A stretch of DNA of 64,000 nt from Eledone cirrhosa. Lineage: Eukaryota. Where the stretch lies: assembly GCA_964016885.1 (NCBI GenBank), contig OZ024746.1:40362001-40426000 (forward strand), read 5' to 3'. This document shows positions 3,955 to 32,800 of the stretch, one piece after another. Each line of letters begins with the position of its first letter. Positions within the stretch are counted from its first letter, which is position 1. Both the position numbers and the translations under genes were made by a program. The notes beneath the pieces are model-generated. The model was given only the letters and a program-made list of their open reading frames with translations, was not told the origin of the DNA and did not search any database.

Positions 3955-4932
3955 GGTGAATTGGCAGTATCGGTAGAGGGTTGGACGCCATGCTTTCTAT
4001 CATAGTTACGTCCCTTTACAGTCTGAGTTCAAATCCCGCCGAGGTTAACTTTGCCTTTCATCCTTACGGGGTCGATAAAATAAAGTACCAGTAATGTACT
4101 GGGTAAGTACCAGTAATGCACTGGGTAATTGCTGGCCTTGTGCCTAAAGTAGAAACAAGTAATGTACTGGGTATTTGCTGGCCTTGTGCCTAAAGTAGAA
4201 ACAATTATCTGTAAACCAATTATTGTATTTTATCTGACGATAGCGTACCAAAATACTGGTACCTTTGAAATATATATAATAAAATAAATATGGTTTTATA
4301 AAGATAATTTCCATTTATTAATTAATATTATTGATATATATATAATTGTTTCTACTTTAGGCACAAGGCCAGCAATTACTCAGTGCATTACTGGTACTTT
4401 ATTTTATCGACCCCGTAAGGCAAAGTCAACCTCGGCGGGATTTGAACTCAGATCGTAAAGGGACGTAACTATGCTGGAAAGCATGGCGTCCGACCCTCTA
4501 CCGATATATATTGATATATATATAATTGTTTCTACTTTTGGCACAAGGCCAGCAATTATCCAGTGCATTACTGGTACTTTATTTTATCGACCCCGTAAGG
4601 ATGAAAGGCAAAGTTAACCTCGGCGGGATTTGAACTCAAACCATAAAGGGGCGTAACTCTTTGCTGCAAAGCATAGCGTCAGACCCTCTACCGATACTGC
4701 CAATCCACCGCCCTACTGCCAATCCACCGCCCTTTGATATATATATAATGGTGAATTGGCAGTATCAGTAGAAGGTTGGACGCCATGCTTTCTAGCATAG
4801 TTACGTCCCTTTACAGTCTGAGTTCAAATCCCGCCGAGGTTAACTTTGCCTTTCATCCTTACGGGGTCGATAAAATAAAGTACCAGTGATGTACTGAACA
4901 ATTGCTGGCCTTGTACCAAAAGTAGAAACAAT
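3955..4932. mobile_element. Cluster of four copies of tRNA-derived SINE family A (+,-,-,+)
   Basis: Copies at about 3955-4205(+), 4345-4505(-), 4525-4730(-), 4749-4932(+). Box-B-like GAGTTCAAATCCC, conserved body CTTTGCCTTTCATCCTTACGGGGTCGATAAAATAAAGTACCAG, end GGCCTTGTGCCTAAAGTAGAAACAA. Confidence 0.9.
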
Positions 4933-17700: not shown

Positions 17701-19554
17701 TCTATGTAAGGTTAGTTACAAAATATCAGATAAAGAGAATATTTACTTACATGCATATCACCAGCTGTTTTCAAAAGTAATAATAATTTTATTCAGAATT
17801 AGTAGCATGTTAGTATCATGTCCTTATTTGGAGGTAGTTGAAGAACTAACGAATCAAATTGTTTTTTTCTTATGGTATTAAGATGAAAAGTATTACACTT
17901 TAGTTGAGGTCATGACCCTTTGAAAGGAATGGTTGAATGGTGTTAATAGTAGAATTGGCATAAAAATCTATTAGGAGAAAGGGATTGTCAAACTGATAGT
18001 TGAATGTATCTGGTATAGTGAAGTTAAAAAGAATGTCAAAATAAATGGTGATTAGTGTTGTATTGAGTTTTTAGGTGAATATAAATTAAGGTTATGGTTA
18101 GGAAAGATAGTATATTAAAAGATGAAAATTATAATAAGATAATGAAATACAGTTATGCGATAGTATACAACTTAACCAACACAATATAGTACGGTGTGGT
18201 GAATTGCACTTAGTATAATACAGCATATGATACGCTCTAAAATACTATCAAGTATGTTTATGCATAAATAATCAAACTCAGATAAATGCATGTTGGCATA
18301 ATTAAAACACATAAATTTCATAGATTACAAAGTGCATATATCCACACTATATATAGAGAGAGGTACAGTTATATTGATATCCAACCAAAAATATACATAC
18401 GCACAAATAGATGCAAACCTAAATACACATTTACACATATGCACTTAAAAATAATTGTTTCTACGTTAGGCACAAGGCCAGCAATTACCCAGTGCATTAC
18501 TGGTACTTTATTTTATCGACCCCGTAAGGATGACTACACCACCACAACATAATTTAAATATGACTGCACCTTTTAAAAAGGCAAATAATACAATCCTTCA
18601 ACCTAGAAAACACAACCACCCAAATCACCAACACAAAAACAACAGAACACAAAATCACCCACAAAACAACTTTCATTCTCCTGCTATCATTAATTACAAT
18701 AGGAATAGCTCAAGGATTAATGAGAATAGTATAGGCACCCCCAACAACCATCTTACGTATGGCTGTAATTGCAGAAATAGAAGCATTTGCCCCTTAAATT
18801 GCAACTGTTTGATTAATAATGTAATATATAAATGCACTGTGTCATTACAGACTCCAACAAAACATATATAGGATCTACATCAAACACATTTAAGAAAAGA
18901 TTTTACGCACACTCTAGTAGTTTCAACAATACTAAACTAGCTAACACCACATCTTTAGCTGAAGCGGTAAATAATTATAAAAAGAAAAAATTAGATTTCA
19001 AGTTATTGTGGAACACCATTCTACAAAGAACTCCATATCTTGGGAACAGGAGGGAATGCAGATTATGTTCAGAGGAGATCTTGGAAATTACTAAATCTAA
19101 GGATGATTTATTAAATAAAAGGCAGGAATTGATCATAGTTTGTAATCACCGTACACGAAGAACATTTAAATACTATAAACCTAATTAAATATTCTAAATA
19201 GCAACTCACTATAATTCTATATAGAGTAACATTTATTAGTACCCCTTTCCCCTAATTATATGCATTCATGCTTATTTTTTACCTTTTAATGTTTTAGCTT
19301 CCTTAGATTTATGCGTTAATGACTAAAGGCAACAAGGTACACAACCACCCGTAATTGCATGAGTAAATGTATATTTATGTGTCTGTGTATATATGTGTAT
19401 ATATGTATGTATATATATATATATATATGTGTTTGTGTGTGTGTATATGTGAGTATAGGTGTATGAGTGTTTATATATGAGTGTGTGTACATGTATGAGG
19501 AGTGTACATACGCACATATATATATATATATGTGTGTATATATATATATATATG

Positions 19555-20843: not shown

Positions 20844-23800
20844 GTGGGTATAGGTGTGTATGTGTGGATATAGATATGTATGGATATGTGTGTATATGAT
20901 TATGTGCATATGTGTAAATGTGTATTTAGGTTTGCATCTATTTGTGCGTATGTATATTTTTGGTTGGATATCAATATAACTGTACCTCTCTATATATATA
21001 GTGTGGATATATGCACTTTGTAATCTATGAAATTTATGTGTTTTAATTATACCAACATGTATTTATCTGAGTTTGATTATTTATGCATAAACATACTTGA
21101 TAGTATTTTAGAGCGTATCATATGCTGTATTATACTAAGTGCAATTTACCACACTGTACCATATTGTATTGGTTAAGTTGTATATTATCACATTACTGTA
21201 TTTCATTATCTTATTATAATTTTCATCTTTTAATATACTATCTTTCCATTTCAGTGAATTTACCACCAACATTAGCCAAGTCACAAGTCAGCAGTGTTCG
21301 TAAAAATTTAAAGATGCAAATGTTGGCATTGCTAAAGCATCCATATTCTCCACGATTTATGTCTCAAATAACCACTCTCTTAACTGATCTTGGAGCGATG
21401 CAGTCAGAGGTAAGATTTTAGATACTGAGACAGTTTCACTCTTATGCGTTGCTTATCTTTATTCTGTATGTCATCTACTATTATCAGCTCTCAGAAGAGT
21501 GATGGATTGGCCAAGTCATTAGAGCATCAAACAAATGCTTAGCAGTATTTGTTTTACTTTTTACATTCTGGGTTCAAATCCCACCAAGATCAACTTTGCC
21601 CTTTCATCTTTTCAAGATCAATAAAATAAAGTATCAGTTCATATATTGGGTTCATTCACTGGGCTTCATAGAATTGACTTTCCCCTCCCAAAATGACTAT
21701 CCTTGTGTCCAAAGTAGAAATCATCATTAGTTCTCAGTTCATCCTTTATAAGTCTTCAGTGGTGTCTCTACAAGCTAATAGATTAAGGAATTCACCACAC
21801 ATCTTCAATTGTGTCCCTACAATCTAATAGATTAACCCTTTAGCATTCACATTGAATTGTCAAATGTCATGTTCATCTATTCGCATTATTTTCACTTAAT
21901 TATACTCAAGAGGGTTATCAATTTTATTTGTTTGTAATTACTTTAATTTTCTATGTGCAGACTTGAAATTTTGTCAGTAGATGTTTAAATAACTATAATT
22001 TACAATTATATATTTTTACCTGATTTTTTTTGTTAAATTTGACTTTTATGGGCAGGTGAAATTAATTAACAGGTGTAAAAGTAATAACTTTATGGATAAA
22101 CACAAAAATTTAAACTTTATCTGCCTTATCTGTTAGATTTGTTGCAAAAAAATCCAATAATGACCTAGATGCTGATTTCCATCAATTCTCGCAGTTTTCT
22201 GAACAGGTGAATTAATTAAAAATGCAGGTGTAATCAGTACACGGTTTTAGTCTTTCTCTACATTCCAGGCAAATATTTTCATTGAAAAAAATGTATAAAA
22301 CCTTTTCACCGGTCAAAATAATATTGGCAATGTACTCTGTAAATGTACGGTGTAAAATTACGTAATAGAAAGTTCCCAATATATAAGTTTATACACACTT
22401 TTAAATTTTTCTGACAATATTTCAATTAATGGTCGTACTTTGTACAGTGGGTCGTAATTTGATTCATTTCTACCAGGGGCATTTGAAGTATCAACCAGAT
22501 GCAAATACTGGTTTAATTTAATGAATCTCGTTTTTGCCATAATACTAGATATATAAGGGTCACCAAACCTTATATCAGTACTCCAATAATTCCACAGTCG
22601 TGGAAATTGTTTAATACCAAACATAATATTTATGGTAAAAAACGCTTTCATTTCGGCAGAATCTGTCGGACAACATAACAGATCGGGTTTTCCAATATTA
22701 TAAATTTGTTGTTGTGCATAGCGATTTGCCACAACTTCGAAGAAAGATTGTGGTAAAAATAAAAAATAATAATCCAGTGCTTTAGCATCGGGTGGTAATG
22801 TGTGTTGTGGTCCAATATTTTCAGTAAAATCCGAAACATGTATCGATGTTGTTTCTTTCAACCACGTTGCTATTTTTTCAATGGTGTCAGTCAAATCTTC
22901 TCTTTCACTTTCAAAGTAACTATCATCATTATCAGATATATCAGAAATAAATATATCTGATTCGTTTGAAGATAAATCGCTGATATTATCTTGTTTCTTT
23001 TTGATCTCGAATGTCGTCGGACGTAAAACCTTCAAATTCGTTGTCGCTACTTTCGGAAGCCATGTTACACTTTCAACGTTAAAAACACGTGTTATCGCAA
23101 GTTCTTTAACTATACTAAGAGTTAATTTTCGCGCGTAAGGGCTTTATCTCGCAGTAATCTCGAATTGACGAGATTTCGATGATGTCAATGTTTATTTTTA
23201 GAAGGAAATCTCCGTGTGGTATTAAATGTCGGTTTTTGTCGGTTTGAATAAATGAAAGGGGACATAATCTTGTCGGTTTTTGTCGCTTTGAATGCTAAAG
23301 GGTTAAGGGACTCACCACACATCTTTAATGGTGTCTCCACAAGCCAATGTTAAGGGATTCACCACACATCTTCAAAGGTGTCCCTACAAGCTAATGTTAA
23401 GGGACTCACCACATCTTCAGTGGTGTCTCTACAAGCTAATGTTAATGGACTCACATCTTCAAAGGTGTCCCTACAAGCCAATGTTAAGAGACTTACCACA
23501 CATCTTCTGTTGTACTCCTACAAGCCAATAGATTAAAGAACTCACCACATCTGCAGTGGAATCTTTATGGGCCAATAGCTTAAGTAACTCCCTTAACACT
23601 TGTGCGACCTGATTTTTTGGAATGTGTGTTGTAAAAGGCAACTAAAGAGTTGGCATCAGGAAGGGCTACTGGCCTTAAAACACCGCCTGAAAGGATCCCA
23701 TCCAAATTATACCAGGATTGAAGAGTGAATAATAAAAAGATGATATGACCCAAGACTTTTAATTCAATATGGGTTTCATGTTGAAAACATATTTCTATTT

Positions 23801-26800
23801 AAGATATAAAATGTATATCCAGTTTAGAATAGGTACACTGTATCCTTGCATATTGTAAGAAGTGACTAAATGGGTTAGTATCAAGATGGGCATCTGGCTG
23901 TAAAACATTTCCTCAAACAGTCCTATCAAACCCATGCCAGCATGGAAAAGTTGATGTAAAAACAATGATGATGATGATAATAGTTGTTGAATTGAATTAA
24001 ACATATTTTGACATATATTGAACACCAATTTTATTTATTCAAATTTATTATAGGTTATGAAGTGTATGCCCAAATCAGAAGACATCAAGAAGAGAAAAGC
24101 TGAAGATGCACCCAGTACTTCGTCATCTAAAAAAGCTAAAGTTGAAGTAACAGTGTGTCTTTGTTTCTGTTTCTGTTTGTTTTTATTTATTTTTACTTTT
24201 TTGTTAAGTTATTCATGAATGCGTTACTTAATCAGGGTAGGATTTATAATTATTTTAGTACCGAAGACTCCCCCCCCCCTCCCCCACAGGAACAAGCCGA
24301 AGCTGAAGCATATAGACAATATGCCCCCACGCCCACTGCAAAGTGGTCGTGGAGGTGCCACGGCAAAAAAGCACCCAGCCCATACTGTAAAGTGGACGTG
24401 TAGGCGCCACGGAAAAAAAGCACCCAGCACTCACTGTAAATGAGGTTGGTGTTAGGAAGGGCATCCAGCTGTAGAAAATCAAGCCAAAATCAGTTCCTGT
24501 ATGAGCAAGACAAGGTCAGCCGACTAGACACTACTCGCAACAGGACAACCCGTCTAACCCATGCTAGCGTGGAAGAATGGACGTAAAACGGTGATGATGA
24601 TGATGATGACTCCATGTTGTGTTGATGTGAATATCCCATCGAAACAGAGTGAAATCTGTTTTTGTGGAAAGATTGTATCCCCATATATGTCACCGAGTAT
24701 TCAAAATTACTGAGTTTGATATATAATGTTAAACAATGAAAGAATAAGGTGAAGTAATGAGGATAGACAGCAGAGTAGATGCAGTTTTTCAAGGCTAGTG
24801 GTATGAAGTTACATAACTGCCATTGATTAATCTACACATCGATAATTTTGCTCTCTGAAATTATCATAAAACAGTGGATTAATTAACTACTTCACCTTGG
24901 TTTTTTCTTATTCTCTCATTGTTTAGCATTATATATCAAACTCTTAAGTTATTAGGTTTCTAGATGTTGGAGTAGCTACATTACTCTATTTAGTTTCGTA
25001 ATTTACTATTGTGTGCTTAAGTTCTTGAAGAGTTGGCTTAGCCTTTTTATCTTCCAGGCTCAGTAGAGTAGCACTAATATACAAGGCAGGGTGGTGTGTG
25101 TGAAAATGATCTTATGCCTAACCAGAAAAAAAATCTATACTTATCACTTTTTTGATTTAGGAACTACTTTATCCCTTTCTTTATATTTCTAATGAAATAT
25201 GCCTATAACTTTCAACTAATTTTGAAAATAATCAAGAATTTGAAAGCAAGATGGGGGATCTTATACACCTCATGAAACTAGGATAGAATCTGACTTGATA
25301 TCTCTCTAGGCTTGAGACAGACTTTAACTAAAAAATACTACATAGTGATATAATAATTATTATAGTTACGCTTAATAAAGAATATAATTTCAACCTTATA
25401 TACCTTTATAGATGAGTATAGATTCAAACATATTTGTTGATACTTAATAGCCTGATCCTGATCCTGAAGAGGAAGAGGCTGCAACAACAGCAGCAAATAA
25501 AGAAAAACAGGCCAATACTGCTCAGAAACAAACAGCTATTGACATCACTGCTGAAGATTTGGTTGGCAGACTAAACCCACACAATGTAGCAGATTTAGTT
25601 TTGATCAGTATGGTGAGTATTATATTTCTTTTTCTTTTTTTATATATTATTATTTAGATTTATGTTATTTATCAAATTATAGGGAGGTGGATTGTCAAAG
25701 TCAGAGCATTGGTTAAAAGTTTTTGGTGTATTTAGTTGAGTTTCTACATTCTGAGTTGAAATTCCGCTGAGGTCAGCTTTGCCTTTCCTCCTTCCAGGGT
25801 TGGTAAAATAAAGTCCCAGCCACGTACTTGGAGTTGATGTATTTGACTTTCCCCATGGGCCTAAATTAGAAATCATTAATTAGTATTATATAAGAACAAA
25901 AAAAAAGTATCTTTAACTATAGTATCCAATATGTCTGTCCTTTTCTTAAAAAAGAAAAAAACATTTGGATGTGATTTAAGGGAGATATGGCTACCATTTA
26001 TAGTGGTGTGACTACATAGATCTCCCATTGTTTACCCACATATTTAGTTCCGCTTTCATTCTGTTTTTTCTATGGCAAATTTCTGTAGACAGATGCCATT
26101 CTTCTCACCAATGCATACTTTTCAGTATGGTAAAGATTCACTGACTTAACAGTGTTTTGCATGCAAAGACATGCACGCAAACACATAAATGATGGTCTAC
26201 CAAATTCACTCACAAGGCACTGGTCAACCCAAGGTTGTAGCAGAAGATACCCAAAAATGCCACACAATGGGAGCAAACCCTAAACCATATGTTTTAGAAG
26301 CGACTAAACCATATGTTTTAGAAGCGAACTTCTAAACCATATATATATATATATAAATGAAGTAATTCCGTCGGAAAGGTCCAGGAAAAAAGAGTGCTCT
26401 ATGTAGGTTACCTTTTCCTTTCCTTCTTCCTTTTCCAGCCTCACTTTCATATAGATTATATTTTTGTTTTTAAAATCCAATGTCAATAAATACACCAGGA
26501 TTTTTTCATTCTGATGATTGAAAGCAAAATTTGTTTGCTTTCAAGAAACCACTGGTAAATGAAATAATTGCCTTATGTTGTTTATTACATAACTATATAT
26601 ATAAAACATTAAAAAAATAATGAATAAAACAATGAAACAGTTCCTTATATTAAACAAAAAAAGTTCATTATTTAACGATCGTTTCTAGGACATATATGTT
26701 AGAATTGGCATGCATATTCAAAAGATCTATGTACAAAATTATACAAACTATCAAAGAGAATATACATACCAACACATATATATGCTGTCTTCAGAAATAT

Positions 26801-29800
26801 ATATGTGTAGCATATATATGTGTTGGTATGTATATTCTCTTTGATAGTTTGTATAATTTTGTACATAGATCTTTTGAATATGCATGCCAATTCTAACACA
26901 TATATGTCCTAGAAACGATCGTTAAATAATGAACTTTTTTTGTTTAATATAAGGAACTGTTTCATTGTTTTATTCATTATTTTTTTAATGTTTTATCTTG
27001 ACTCTGTATTCCGTTTATCTTTCACCGAAAGTGATTTTTGAATGCATCTCTTCTTTCCATGATATCCGGATTACATTGAGTTCTTCATACGGATTGGACA
27101 CTACCGTAAACTTTTGGTAGATTTATCTACATAACTATATATATATATATATATTTCCATGCAAATGAAACATTTCTAGTTCTGTTGAACTCATTTCTAT
27201 ATAAAATAAAAATACCTATACTCTACTAACGTATTGAGTAGCTTTTTTAAATATGCTCACCTCCCAATACTCATCAGGAATCCACGTGTTATATACACAC
27301 ATATCAAATTATGAAAAGATGAGGATGCAGACATAGCTACTTTTGATGTAGGTAAATGTTGTACTCATTCCCTTAAAGAGGAATCGTAGCTGTGCTAAAA
27401 CATAGCTTTCTAAGAATAACAATAAAAAAACCAAGAAATCTGTTAAATTTTGGAAGGCTGTTTTTTAAAGTCAGTAGCAAAATAAATACACTTGACGTTT
27501 TGCTTCACATTAGCATGTGTTAGTATGATGGTGTTTGTATCAACTCATCTTTCTTTTATCTTGGTATATTTTTTTGTTAATGGTTTGTTGCGGATAGTGA
27601 GAAGGCTGTGTGTTCGTTTCTCGGGGTCACCAGTTGTAGCAGATAATATGGTATTCTTTTGATGAGTGTTTGTTGAAAAGAATAATGCCATGATTGAGTT
27701 GTTAACAACGTTTATTTTATAACAACAATATTCACTTTGAACATCGAGTAATAATATTTATGACATGAATTATCCCTACATTATTTAGCTGACTCTAGCT
27801 TCTACGAGCTAGCGTAAATGCATGTATCACAGAAAACGATATAGTAAAAGTTGTGTTGTATCTTAGATACAATATGACAGGAAGGATAGAATGAGTGTAG
27901 AATGTAAACAATATGAACTTACTATGTGTGTGTGTGTGTGTATTCTTATAATACATTATTCATCTTAAGGGTGCTGCTTCCTGTCTGGCTGTGTCTGTGG
28001 CCGATATGGTGATAACCAGTGAGGCCAGGAGAGAGAGATAGAGTGAAAGGTCTGCTACATCGTTAACCTTAACACGGACTGCTTGCTTCGGTCTCACTGG
28101 CTGTTAGATTCCTTAACTCCTTGTAATTATAATTGTGCTATAGTTAGAAGGATGTGTATATGAGGTTGATTTATGATCAGCCATGTGGATATTGTCTCCC
28201 AGGAAGCTGGGATCAGAGGTCAAGTGGAATGTACGTTTATCATCGCTGTCTTGACAGGACAATGGTAGGAACTTTCCAATAATGGATGGTCCCAGAGGCG
28301 AGAAACCTCAGATTTGGTTTCAAATCTTCGCCGGTAAAATATAGGAGTATTTTGTTATAGGTTTTTTTTAAATATAATTATTTTCATTTTCCCATTGAAT
28401 AGGTAATGCTACCTGATACACTACCAGCCCATTTCCAAGCAACATATACACCAATTGCTGCAGCTGGTACTCCTGGTCAGATTAAGCATCTAGCCAGATT
28501 ACTTGCAACCCAACTAACAACGGCAGGAATGGGTAAGGGACTCTCCAATGTTCAAAAAATGGTAAGTATAAACTGTGATGTTACTTTTATTCAAAAGTTT
28601 GTAAGGCACCAATATAAAGTGGGACTTAAATATCTATTTATGTAAGTTATATTCTAGACATCAGTTTAATATATCAAATAATGAAAAAGTTATTTATTTT
28701 ATTAAATCCCTCCAAAATTCTTCTCCTCCTCCTCCTTTTTATTTTTCTTGTTCTTTCTCCTTGAGAGGGTCATGGGGGCAGAGTCATCAAACACTCCTTC
28801 CTGCAGGTCATGTCAGAAGCATCTATATTCAATTGATACAGCTGGATCCCCAAGCAAAACCAGCCAAGCTCATGGATGTTATTCAACAATCTTCCTCGGG
28901 GTCAACCCTTTGGACTCCTGCCAGTTGGTTTTGTCATTAAAATCTATCCAGCAATTCTTTCCTGAGACATTCTAACCTCATGCCTGCAGTATCAGAGCTG
29001 TGATCCCTCATTTATAAAAAAAAAGTTAATAAAAAATATAGGTAGTGTTTTTCATTAGAAATATGGCTACATAAATGTTTACTTGTTTTATAAATGAATT
29101 TTGTTTGTAATAAACCAAAACTTAATTAACTGTCACTTTGAAAATATTGAAGTCAAAGGAAACGAAGATTCATCAGAACAAAATAAGAGCGACTAGTTAT
29201 ATTTATGGATTTTCTTTTTCTTATATTCTTCATTTCGTTATTGCTTTATATATATTTTTCTGTAAATAAAGATTTCAAATTGTTTGAACAATTGTCTTAA
29301 CCGGGTGTAAGAAGTTACTAGAGAAATCATGTGGAACAACTAGTATAAGCATACACAAACAAATACACCCCGCTCCAAACACAAAGGAGCCGAAAACTCC
29401 TGGCAAACATAAGCTGAATGTTACAATAATGTTTTACAGAATGTAGACACTGAAGAGGCACCTGTCCCAGTAGAAGAAGAAAAAGCTGTTAGTAAATTCC
29501 AAATTCAAACTCTAGTAGGTAAGTGGTCAGTTAATGAAATAATTACTCAAATATCTTATAATGGAAACATATTTGAAATATTATTGCATACATTATTTGA
29601 TAAATCCTTGCTTGCCTCTGAATTATTTCTTGTTGCAGAATAATAGAGAATATTCTTCAGTCATAACCAGTACATGAAACCTCTCTAGTGCTGGTGTCAT
29701 GATAAATTGCACCTAGTAAAAAAGCTTCAAGCACAGGTACCATTTGATATGTGACATTTTCTGTGATGTGTGGCATTGTTGGCAATAGGCAAGTCCCTAG

Positions 29801-32800
29801 CAGGACTAAAAAGCCACGTCCGTGATGTTCATGCTTAAGTATCAAGCGATGGCATTACTCAAAATTGAGTTGCAGCCATCATCATATATATATGATGATG
29901 GCTGCAACTCGATTTCGAGTATATATATATATATTAGATATATAATCACAGCTATTAGTGTGCTCATTACTGGAATATTGCTGTATTCGTATCTACAATT
30001 TCAAATTTCTTATTACATATGTAATTCTATTATATCAAACTTGAGACACCTGGATTTCCATTGATATATTTTTAGATAATGAACTTAAACAGATTTAGAT
30101 TAAACAAGGAAAATATATTTATATGGCTGAATTAAGCATTTAAAAATGTTTAACTTTTAACATCCTGCACCACATACAATCACATTAGCAAGACATTTTT
30201 GAATAATCCAAAATAGCACTATAATTGCATCATCATCATCTTTTTTATGTCCATTTTTCCATTTCCATGGGTCTTTTCCATCAAAGTCTTTACTTTAGTT
30301 TACTGTATATACACAACAATCTGTCCATTAGTAGAGATACAATAAACATTTCAATTAACAAAGCTGTGTTTAGATATTTTCTGTGAAATCAACATAGGAC
30401 GTTAAGAGGTAAAAAAGTTATTTCTTTTTATTTCAATGGTTCCAGGAGGAACAACAATTGAAGAACCTAAGAAGCCTGATGCTCCTCTTATATCACAACC
30501 AATTATGGTAAGTTAGTATTGGTTTCAGTTTTTTTTTTTTTCTTCATTTGTTTTGCCTCACTTAGTAGCTGTTATAGGCAGTGAATTGGCAGAGTTGTTA
30601 GAACGTTGGATAGAATGCTTTATGGGATTCGTTCCAGCTCTCTGAGTTCAAATCTTGCCACAGTCAATTTTGCTTTTCATCCTTTCGAGGTTGATAATAA
30701 AATAAAGTACAATAAAAAAAAAAGACTACAATGAGACTCTGTACACACAGCTCCCATGACAGTTCATTTCAATTCTTATTTATAGAGTTTCGCGGCGGTA
30801 TTCAGGGTTTTTTCCCCACAACCTCAATAAAACAAATATTAAACAAATACTGATTGGTAGCTTGTTCATAATTAAAGACAAATTATCCACTGCAACTTTC
30901 ATTCTTTATTAGTAAATATTTAATCATGATTTTGTTTGTAGGGCACACGGAAAGGTTTAAAGCAGTTCAAGTTATCCAGTGTCACTAAATCAATGAACCG
31001 AGACCTCCTTGATCAAATGACAGTCAGTGCTGTGAAGCGTATATTAATGGCTGAAAGTAAGTATTCAACACTCACTCATATATTTCCTCCTCCTTATTCT
31101 TATGGGTCATTCCTGGGAGGGTCATGGGGGCAGTCGCCAGGCATGCTTTCAAGAGGGGCCTATTGAAAGCAGCCATCTCCCAAACGAGACCAATCTCACT
31201 TAGGGATCTTATCCAACCATTTTGTTTGTGGTATACTTCTGGGTCTCATACAAGTTGGCTCTGTCTGTAAAATCTCTCCTGCAATATTTTTCTTAGGCAT
31301 TCTAACCACGTGTTTGTCGTACCAGAACTACAATCTCTTGATGTAGAAAAGTAGCAGCTCTACTTGAAGCAACTCCCTGTTCTCCAAGCTATGCACCTTA
31401 CCAAGTAATGTTACTCCAGAGACTCTTTGGAAGAACCCCATTTCAGCTGCTTTTTTTTTTTGTATTTAGTTTGTTGAGTGTGTTAATTGTGTAGACCACT
31501 GACGTAAGGCAGGTTATCATGTCTTTGACACAACTGAAGAGTCTTTCTAGTTCATTGTTTTGGTAAGTGTTCTATGGCTGGATGCCCTTCCTATCACCAA
31601 CCACTTGAGTCCTGAATCAAAATGGAAGAGGGGACCAAAAAGATTGATATCAGGAAGGGCATCTGGCTGTCAAAATACTGCCTCAAAACATTTCGTCCAA
31701 CCTATACCAGCATGGAAAAATGGAGATAAAAATGATGATGATGGATTGGGGAATCATTGAGATACAGATTTATGGACAGAAAGATTATTGGTTGAAACAC
31801 AATCAATGACACTGCATGTTACTAATAGTAACTGCATCGAAACAGTAAAACAGTTACTTCAACAAGTCATAGTTCATTTCCATTTCCATTTAGGCATGAG
31901 GCATCATGATTTCTCTTGTTAATGACAGCTTTTTATTTCTCACTTTGTCAGAAAGTGCTCTTATTGGAAATGCATTGCCAGAACGAACAAAGATTTTGTC
32001 ATCTCTTGTCGCTCAATTTGGTGGTGAGCTAAAAAACTGTGAGTATTTAAATTACAACTATTGTGAAAGGATTTTGATCATAGTGTGATTAGAATGAATT
32101 ATTATTATTTTTTAAAATTAATTTTGAATATCATTCATTAGTCACAGTTAGGGTCTCATGATCAGAAGGTTGTGTGTTCAAATCCTGGATGGGATGACAT
32201 TATATTCTTGGGTAAGACACTTCATTTTCAAGTTGCTTCTCTTGATAGGACTGGACCCCTATCATTAGATCACCCCAAAAATCTCTTATGAGATATAACC
32301 TTATAGGAGACCAGCTAAGCTTGCATATGTATGAACTGTAAATCCCATTTTTTTTTTTTTGTAACCTTTTTTTTCCATTTGAAACATATTCTATTGAATA
32401 AAACTTTAATCATATTTTGACTATGAAATTATTTCTATTATTTGACTTCATTATATGATTGAGGATTGACGCCATCGTTAGAGCGTCGGACAACATGCTT
32501 TGCGGTATATAGTTACAGACCTTTATGTCTTGATTTCAGATCCACTGAGGTCAGCTTTGCCTTTCATCCTCACAGGGTCGATAAAATAAAGTACCAGTAA
32601 TGCGCTAGGATTAATTTAATCAACTTTTCCCCTCTCCCAAAATTGTTGGCCTTGTGTCTATATCAGAAATCATTATATGATTGGATGGTGACTCAAAAAT
32701 TTTTTTTTTTCTTTTAGTATTACAAGAGTACATATTTGAGGATTTACGTAACCGAGCAGATATAGCATTCTCTTGGTTATATCAAGAATATGTTGTGTGT

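What the first reader, a model, noticed from the sequence alone, without database searches (positions are those of the whole stretch)
26586..27145. TSD-flanked palindromic insertion carrying a hammerhead ribozyme with a 100-nt stem II
Seen: a 186/188-bp near-perfect inverted repeat plus a 130-nt unique tail, bounded by an 18-bp direct repeat. On the minus strand it reads TATTT CTGAAGA [hairpin] GAAAC GATC GT T AAATA. Within the hairpin, GUUGGUAUGUAUAUUC pairs with GAAUAUGCAUGCCAAU, and all three non-Watson-Crick positions are G.U wobbles on this strand only, which points to selection on RNA structure. The + strand arm lacks CUGAAGA because the inversion point lies inside the core. Known: Penelope-like pseudo-LTRs and retrozymes carry type I hammerheads with palindromic stem III that cleave as dimers, and PLE insertions often have an inverted 5' pLTR. 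Inference: a young, non-coding, ribozyme-bearing retroelement with an atypically long stem II. The base of stem II is imperfect (C opposite A), so this copy may be inactive.
Basis: partly seen in the sequence, partly recalled or inferred. Interest (0 to 1): 0.75.

Follow-up and report, generated by a model that had tools for sequence, protein, structure and literature searches.

The report
Long-stemmed hammerhead in Penelope retroelement stub
This palindrome is the short, two-armed end of an abundant protein-coding Penelope-like jumping gene in an intron; the whole family carries a hammerhead self-cutting RNA motif with an unusually long (about 100-base) second stem kept by compensating base changes, but this copy is predicted to be inactive and the layout is a known one.

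Summary
In detail: 186/188-bp arms, a tail, an 18-bp duplication and a minus-strand type I hammerhead with a 102-nt stem II. It is not a separate non-coding element. It is the terminal repeat (pLTR) of a 5.2-6.7-kb autonomous Hydra-clade Penelope-like element (RT plus GIY-YIG; at least 6,369 pLTR copies), inserted in a symplekin intron. The long stem, the C·A at its base and a C·C at position 4 are family traits. A sister family swaps four basal pairs on both sides, whereas published Hydra hammerheads have 3-7-bp stems. Copies end at two fixed pLTR points (188 and about 325); 38 of 39 two-armed loci have one of each, head to head. This fits two reverse transcripts primed from opposite strands on uncut RNA. 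5' ends pile up at the ribozyme's front, not at its cut site; the cause is unresolved. Wobble pairs arose mostly by A-to-G changes (selection or ADAR editing). Cleavage is untested, and this copy is predicted to be locked in its own palindrome. The scan has already noted similar long-stem Penelope palindromes on other DNA. Verdict: a new variant of a known kind.

The parts
26586..26603 (+). Left copy of the 18-bp target-site duplication; it is also the 3' end of the neighbouring element plus its TA run
26601..26799 (-). Inverted arm: pLTR from 12 nt before stem II (-12) to the family's short end (188), with a 2-nt deletion
26668..26799 (-). Type I hammerhead: stem I 5' strand 26799-26795, CUGAAGA 26794-26788, 102-nt stem II 26787-26686, GAAA 26685-26682, palindrome ACGAUCGU 26682-26675, H17 = U at 26674, stem I 3' strand from 26673
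26800..26808 (+). 9-nt filler at the head-to-head junction, matching pLTR 7-15 (templated insertion)
   Evidence: read from the sequence
26809..26996 (+). Direct arm, pLTR 1-188; holds stem II, GAAA and stem III (GAAACGATCGTT at 26912-26923) but lacks CUGAAGA
26997..27134 (+). Tail, pLTR 189-326: the stretch between the family's two fixed ends; its last 7 nt overlap the right duplication
27128..27145 (+). Right copy of the target-site duplication
26356..26596 (+). Neighbouring insertion of another high-copy hammerhead-bearing repeat (inverted long end about 26356-26412, direct part to 26596); the finding sits in its TA tail
26503..26565 (+). Second type I hammerhead (27-nt stem II, stem III ACCACUGGU, H17 = A) inside the neighbouring element
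25613..28402 (+). Host intron of a symplekin gene
   Evidence: exon 21260-21409 matches PF11935 at E 3e-9; exon from 28403 matches human symplekin 391-439 at E 5e-15; splice sites read

Best explanation
It is a short two-armed stub of an autonomous Hydra-clade Penelope-like retrotransposon, likely made when the element's endonuclease nicked both strands of a TA run 18 bp apart and each free end primed reverse transcription of uncut element RNA at one of two fixed internal sites (pLTR 188 and about 325), the two cDNAs then joining head to head near the front of the hammerhead. Shown: family membership, the ORF, the two fixed ends, their pairing, and the 5' pile-up at -16 to -4. The hammerhead with its 100-120-nt stem II is a family trait whose fold is supported by compensatory changes. 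It is predicted to be a weak ribozyme that needs a dimer (8-nt palindromic stem III) and that a downstream hairpin usually switches off. In this copy it would also be buried in the 186-bp palindrome. Why the arms stop at the ribozyme front is inferred only: a short RNA that starts there (about 45%), a nick by the element's own endonuclease (about 35%), or an RT stop or jump (about 20%).
For: Family size: 1,341 exact hits of a 26-mer, 6,369 of a 23-mer, 10,464 of the ribozyme front; reversed controls 0. Structure pLTR-ORF-3'UTR-pLTR with 5.2-6.7-kb spacing. Intact 806-817-aa ORFs carry RWR, DKT, LYRDD, CxCx5C, a GIY-YIG-like motif, CxxC and CxH, the Hydra features in PMC8557442 section 11. 3' ends: 84 of 145 copies at 185-188, 54 at 321-327, 7 elsewhere. 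39 of 39 two-strand loci are head to head, and 38 of 39 have one short and one long outer end; the 39th was cut by the fetch window. Two internal RT start sites that define the tail, and use of uncleaved RNA, are shown in vitro for PAc (PMC11167929). 5' ends: 31 of 52 and 30 of 49 at -16 to -4; 1 of 49 within 110-122 around the cut site in the sample that could show it. Stem II: 4 of 7 basal pairs change on both sides across the family and its sister, 99.3% of cells paired, 0 of 500 shuffles as high, slid controls 40-63%. Shorter-stemmed hammerheads here keep a different 8-nt palindrome and the position-4 mismatch. Folding: hammerhead fold 5-10 kcal/mol above the minimum once the RNA passes position 200; palindrome about -310 kcal/mol.
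Against: No cleavage assay and no RNA data. ORF-bearing copies do not stop at -14: 28 of 48 run past it and the single one there is a SINE junction, which argues against a simple 'RNA starts here' reading. Within the young family alone covariation is thin (1 pair changed on both sides, 278 of 500 shuffles as high; shared versus rare variants P = 0.07), and the four double changes rest largely on one family split. The isolated minimum-energy fold of this copy is not the hammerhead fold. Both samples come from one contig and from exact-match hits. Clade assignment is by motifs and by-eye comparison with published sequences, not by a tree; Pfam and PDB gave no RT or GIY-YIG hit.
Confidence: 0.8

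Rival explanations
1. The short stubs are a self-propagating non-coding family (retrozyme- or SINE-like): a short RNA from -14 to about 326 is transcribed from stubs or 3' pLTRs and copied in trans by the element's protein.
For: About 60% of 5' ends inside the pLTR fall at -16 to -4 with the mode on the A of TCATT, an initiator-like motif (motif recalled); long ORF copies do not stop there; D. virilis Penelope has an internal promoter (PMC2377424); only 3,741 of about 10,464 ribozyme fronts keep the native upstream 10 nt (exact patterns).
Against: Stub and long copies share identical pLTR variants; stubs are not tandem arrays; junctions differ at every locus; arms ending at 188 lack the second start site.
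Confidence: 0.25
2. The arms end at the ribozyme front because an endonuclease nicks the antisense strand of pLTR DNA at C|ATTATTT, so short palindromes are long two-armed inserts trimmed at both nicks and rejoined by end joining.
For: A SINE 3' end is joined exactly at -14 in 534 places against 9 at the pLTR's second ATTATTT. In about 17 of 20 inspected cases (read by eye) the element continues upstream with a 3-18-nt duplication, and in L009 both duplicates carry the same private base, which points to a nick in genomic DNA. PAc endonuclease prefers ATT in its own pLTR. Junction fillers resemble templated end joining.
Against: 5' pLTRs of ORF-bearing copies should then be cut as often, and they are not; the control pattern may miss subfamily variants.
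Confidence: 0.3
3. One cDNA folds back and primes itself (self-priming on an antisense template, as proposed for rotifer Penelope), giving the palindrome from a single priming event.
For: PMC3846280 proposes self-priming for head-to-head palindromes; some junctions are perfect palindromes.
Against: A fold-back copies one end, so it does not explain two different fixed ends (38 of 39 loci) or arms up to 6.5 kb apart with unequal content.
Confidence: 0.1
4. The hammerhead core is vestigial: the long hairpin is kept for protein binding or RNA dimerisation and never cuts.
For: C·A instead of the usual G10.1-C11.1, GUU triplet, a competing hairpin, almost no 5' ends at the cut site; HHR mutants did not affect PAc insertion in vitro.
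Against: The core is nearly invariant (at most 6 of 198 copies changed per position); H17 varies only between U and A; mismatches at the base of stem II and H17 = U are common among published Hydra hammerheads.
Confidence: 0.25
5. Assembly fold-back artefact.
For: No record spanned the locus.
Against: Unequal arms, a 2-nt difference, a filler, a target duplication, and the same layout in 39 of 39 two-armed loci.
Confidence: 0.03

Closest known systems
Hydra clade of C-terminal EN+ Penelope-like elements (Craig et al. 2021, PMC8557442), e.g. Hydra-1_Obim
   Same: Single RT-EN ORF with RWK-like, DKT, CxCx5C, CxxC and CxH motifs; (TA)n targets; type I hammerhead in the pLTR with CUGAAGA core, H17 = U and often a 1x1 mismatch at the base of stem II (File S2).
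   Different: Stem II is 98-122 nt against 3-7 bp with 3-10-nt loops in the listed Hydra hammerheads; unit 5.2-6.7 kb against 'generally <3 kb'; tail about 137 nt against 30-40; stem III is an uninterrupted 8-nt palindrome. It is a different family from Hydra-1_Obim (N-terminus compared by eye).
Inverted-pLTR-plus-tail insertions of EN+ PLEs (PMC3846280; PMC8557442 Fig. 2 legend) and two-site internal RT initiation of PAc (PMC11167929)
   Same: Head-to-head inverted pLTR, tail on one arm, target duplication, two discrete ends, uncleaved template.
   Different: The two ends are 137 nt apart and almost always one on each arm (38 of 39); both overlap the TA target by 3-7 nt, whereas PAc starts at a site not homologous to the cut DNA; duplication up to 18 bp against 8-10 bp.
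Minimal or short-helix-III hammerheads of metazoan PLEs (PMC4209133)
   Same: Type I, in the pLTR, palindromic 15.2-16.2 region, proposed to work as dimers, low activity expected.
   Different: Helix II there is 6-8 bp with a conserved G10.1-C11.1 pair; here about 28 bp plus an apical domain, with C·A at the base and C·C at position 4.
Non-LTR retrozymes (PMC7229834; bioRxiv 10.64898/2026.07.22.740005)
   Same: Non-coding stretch of about 330 nt with a type I hammerhead, related to PLE pLTRs.
   Different: Retrozymes are head-to-tail tandems of cut-to-cut monomers; this is a head-to-head pair whose ends ignore the cut site and whose sequence is continuous with an ORF-bearing element.

Membership tests
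EN+ Penelope-like element | Single ORF with RT and GIY-YIG endonuclease between two pLTRs | tested here: met
   806-817-aa ORFs with RT and EN motifs between pLTRs in family copies; by motif only, Pfam and PDB gave no hit
EN+ Penelope-like element | Inverted 5'-truncated pLTR, one-sided tail, target duplication | tested here: met
Hydra clade | RWK-type and DKT motifs, CxCx5C linker, CxxC/CxH around E and N, C-terminal EN | tested here: met
   RWR, DKT, CNCRNKANC, CRLCSQE, CNH against PMC8557442 section 11
Hydra clade | No CCHH motif in the endonuclease | tested here: inconclusive
   not seen on reading the translation; no alignment to CCHH-bearing ENs was made
Hydra clade | Insertion into (TA)n | tested here: met
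   flanks printed
Hydra clade | RT phylogeny groups with Hydra elements | not tested
   the published sequences could be read but were not available as stored sequences for a tree
Hydra clade | Short length (generally under 3 kb; descriptive, not strict) | tested here: not met
   5.2-6.7 kb, owing to a long microsatellite-rich 3' UTR
Type I hammerhead ribozyme | CUGANGA, GAAA and NUH core in register with stems I-III | tested here: met
   core intact in 66 of 70 copies
Type I hammerhead ribozyme | Stem II supported by covariation | tested here: met
   (family plus sister); weak within the young family alone
Type I hammerhead ribozyme | Watson-Crick 10.1-11.1 pair closing stem II | tested here: not met
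   C·A family-wide; precedent in PLE-X1_cBra and U·U in many Hydra hammerheads
Type I hammerhead ribozyme | Self-cleavage after NUH | not testable with these tools
   needs an in vitro assay
Non-LTR retrozyme | Head-to-tail tandem monomers delimited by the ribozyme | tested here: not met
   39 of 39 two-strand loci head to head; 1 of 49 5' ends near the cut
Non-LTR retrozyme | No coding capacity in the family | tested here: not met
Naiad PLE | N-terminal GIY-YIG endonuclease | tested here: not met
   the endonuclease is C-terminal

The most novel reading that the evidence does not exclude
Each insertion is made by a dimeric particle holding two uncut RNAs paired through the hammerhead's 8-nt palindrome, one primed at 188 and the other at 325. 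The 100-nt stem II is a long double-stranded target whose ADAR A-to-I edits are written back into the genome by the element's RT (derived A-to-G at 5 of 19 stem adenines against 3 of 72 elsewhere in the pLTR), so host RNA editing drives the evolution of a ribozyme.
Probability: 0.2. Interest if true: 0.72.

Novelty: new variant of a known kind. Interest (0 to 1): 0.42.

Why it matters
The locus itself is an ordinary dead stub. The family matters for three reasons. (1) Hammerhead searches with short-stem descriptors would miss about 10,000 motifs of this kind in one genome, and a shared C·C/C·U at position 4 of stem II links stems from 26 to 122 nt. (2) The strict one-short-plus-one-long rule gives genomic support for two-site, two-strand priming in Penelope-like elements, whose mechanism is still open, and there are many intact 813-aa ORFs to test it with. 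(3) If the A-to-G excess comes from ADAR, it is a traceable case of RNA editing being fixed in DNA through retrotransposition.

Tried and rejected
Rfam: no hammerhead match in 24000-30000 (only sub-threshold miRNA hairpin hits) or in four loci including short-stem controls; uninformative. Pfam and PDB on the 813-aa ORF: no meaningful hit. Sequencing runs: no RNA holder listed, so expression and cut ends could not be examined. Empty-site search on contigs of 4 runs: no piece spanned the locus and no matching joint among the rows shown (4 more joint rows were not shown). 'Full-length copies start at -14' was tested and not supported; L053 looked like such a copy but is a SINE insertion. 'C·A marks a dead copy' rejected. 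'Retrozyme' and 'Naiad' rejected (membership test). The 5' end cluster at position 42 was an artefact of linear gap cost; one search is the corrected count. Four '-92' ends are probably subfamily divergence, not ends, and were left in the denominator of 49. Literature: searches for 'hammerhead ribozyme + long stem II + genomic' and 'hammerhead + retroelement + helix II + unusually long' gave 0 papers; 'octopus + hammerhead ribozyme + Penelope' gave only PMC8557442; two ADAR searches (listings only) showed nothing on edits fixed in a PLE. These cover only the open library. The RNA Biology paper on dimeric PLE hammerheads was not held, so it may contain long-stem cases that I could not see.
Full report
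Numbering. pLTR position 1 is window 26809; -13 is the first T of TTATTTCTGAAGAC; the predicted cut lies between 115 and 116. Stem positions such as 15, 18, 92 and 112 count from that first T.

1. Observation. The repeats, the duplication and the hammerhead motif are as described. The arms match at 186 of 186 positions with one 2-nt gap. The spacer holds the reverse of the core and a 9-nt filler matching pLTR 7-15. The site is in an intron (25613-28402) of symplekin. It directly follows another young repeat that has its own hammerhead at 26503-26565 and whose copies end in the same TACATAAC-TA. The right duplication carries a C found in 0 of 54 other long ends of the family, so it was copied from the target.

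2. What it belongs to. The + arm has at least 40 near-identical genomic copies (40 of 1,300 candidates scored). Exact patterns give 1,341, 6,369 and 10,464 hits with reversed controls at 0. Many copies run upstream through a microsatellite-rich 3' UTR into an ORF, and others run downstream into its start. pLTRs are 5.2-6.7 kb apart. More than 60 of 150 listed ORF starts lie in open frames of 800 aa or more (my count; 150 of 12,441 candidates scored). Intact ORFs of 806-817 aa carry RWR, DKT, LYRDD, CxCx5C, a GIY-YIG-like motif, CxxC and CxH. These are the Hydra-clade marks of PMC8557442 (section 11 read; passages; supplement part 2 and passages). No tree was built, and Pfam and PDB gave no hit. 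The organism is not given; a cephalopod is my guess.

3. How the stub was made. I took 60 stretches around the first 100 listed hits (leaving out two loci already held, four single hits and five outlying array members) and 40 stretches around the first hits (skipping those already taken); all are on contig C1. Of 145 copies, 84 end at 185-188, 54 at 321-327 and 7 elsewhere. All 39 loci with both strands are head to head, and 38 have one short and one long outer end. PAc protein nicks and extends both strands, starts at two internal RNA sites that define the tail, and uses uncut RNA (PMC11167929, parts 1-2 of 4 read). The simplest reading is therefore two primings on opposite strands. Inverted pLTRs with a one-sided tail and a duplication are published (PMC3846280, passages); that paper favours self-priming, which does not explain two different ends. 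5' ends inside the pLTR fall at -16 to -4 in 31 of 52 and 30 of 49 copies (binomial P about 1e-28 against a uniform spread), and only 1 of 49 lies near the cut site in the sample able to show it. Several junctions repeat the first 9-16 nt. Earlier scan notes gave me the leads of a join at the ribozyme front and of an RNA start there. Against an RNA start: 28 of 48 ORF-bearing copies run past -14 and the one that seemed to stop is a SINE insertion. A SINE is joined at exactly -14 in 534 places against 9 at a second ATTATTT in the pLTR, mostly with a 3-18-nt duplication, which suggests a DNA nick there. The cause of the pile-up stays open.

4. The ribozyme. In 198 copies each core position is changed in at most 6, and CUGAAGA is intact in 66 of 70 sampled copies that reach it. 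Stem II reads C·A, two pairs, C·C, 13 pairs, a 6-nt bulge, 13 pairs and an apical domain. Frequent variants keep pairing except at helix ends and at position 27. Within the young family the signal is modest (98% paired, one double change). Older subfamilies keep 98-108-nt stems. A sister family has a 102-nt stem with GGGUAG/CUACCC in place of AUAUAU/AUAUAU and the same C·A, C·C and palindrome. On 21 selected sequences, 4 of 7 basal pairs change on both sides (0 of 500 shuffles), though mostly through one family split. Contigs of four other organisms show no listed change in the core. In 768 kb of fetched DNA, enriched for this family, other hammerheads have stem II of 14-51 nt; those of 26-36 nt mostly share an 8-nt palindromic or near-palindromic stem III and a mismatch at position 4, including a second Hydra-type family with a 31-nt stem. 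Published Hydra hammerheads have 3-7-bp stems, often a mismatch at the base and H17 = U; PLE-X1_cBra has C·A; PLE-X1_sMoe has a 34-nt loop. PLE hammerheads are weak in vitro and proposed to act as dimers (PMC4209133, parts 1-2 of 4 read). The palindrome gives an 8-bp duplex of -10 kcal/mol. Once the RNA passes position 200, the 3' strand of stem I pairs downstream with probability about 0.8 and the hammerhead fold costs 5-10 kcal/mol. In this locus the intact core is antisense to symplekin, and a transcript across both arms folds into the palindrome (-310 kcal/mol). All activity statements are predictions.

5. Wobbles. Shared A/G variants occupy 8 of 28 purine sites of the stem against 29 of 281 synonymous ORF sites (P = 0.01) and 4 of 77 in pLTR 122-325; C/T variants are at background. 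Polarised on older subfamilies, A-to-G arose at 5 of 19 stem adenines against 3 of 72 elsewhere (P = 0.009, 18 chosen copies). Selection that tolerates G·U but not A·C, on a background that is itself constrained, could give this; so could ADAR editing fixed by RT (high editing in cephalopods is recalled, not tested). Numbers are small.

6. Against known systems. It works like, and by the tested features is, an EN+ Penelope-like element with Hydra-clade motifs. It is not a retrozyme (PMC7229834 passages; bioRxiv 10.64898/2026.07.22.740005 part 1 of 5) or a Naiad. An internal Penelope promoter is published (PMC2377424, passages). I found no paper on a 100-nt stem II in a PLE hammerhead, but the library is partial, one key paper was not held, bioRxiv supplements are closed, and supplements other than that of PMC8557442 were not read. 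The scan itself has noted such long-stem Penelope palindromes in this and other genomes.

7. Verdict. Real, explained, and a variant of a known kind. The long conserved stem, the two-end rule and the A-to-G and SINE signals are worthwhile leads, but none is yet a demonstrated new mechanism. Interest 0.42.

Noticed in passing
genome-wide; L249-L268, L009, L053/L245, L178: A SINE 3' end is joined exactly at the front of the hammerhead (pLTR -14) in 534 places against 9 at another ATTATTT in the same pLTR; often with a 3-18-nt duplication, sometimes twice in tandem or in both arms. It may mark a nick site of the Penelope endonuclease used by the SINE.
   Followed up: partly
window 26356-26596; L225-L244: Neighbouring young repeat with its own hammerhead (26503-26565, + strand, sense to symplekin) and two fixed ends about 60 nt apart; also a two-armed insertion. 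No ORF of its own was traced.
   Followed up: partly
L095-L124 (and L044:522-1963): Second abundant Hydra-type family (about 40% identical at the C-terminus) with a 1.3-kb 3' UTR and a homologous hammerhead: 31-nt stem II with C·C at position 4 and palindrome ATATATAT.
   Followed up: partly
L269-L288: Older sister family with a 102-nt stem II, GC-rich compensatory basal helix and GUA triplet.
   Followed up: yes
window about 4225-4290 (+): Another hammerhead with a 26-nt stem II and ATATATAT palindrome, just after a SINE end.
   Followed up: no
window 18737-19185 (+): 3' fragment of a third Hydra-type ORF (about 62% identical to the family), followed by a long microsatellite; part of an inverted duplication (18400-18433 against 20917-20950).
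   Followed up: no
L172:1492, L223; L034, L006, L119: Further hammerhead families: 51-nt stem II with C·A at the base and a 10-nt palindrome; 14-nt stem II with a 6-nt palindrome.
   Followed up: no
L075, L077, L247-L248; L165: Youngest subfamily forms tandem arrays of intact 6.6-kb units; L165 holds a local array of short-ended stubs.
   Followed up: no
ORF residues about 475-580 (L075): N/T/K-rich low-complexity insert between the RT thumb and the endonuclease linker, like the N-rich inserts described for rotifer Penelope (PMC3846280).
   Followed up: no
window 26601-26996 (+): In symplekin pre-mRNA the palindrome would form a 186-bp double-stranded hairpin, a likely ADAR substrate.
   Followed up: no
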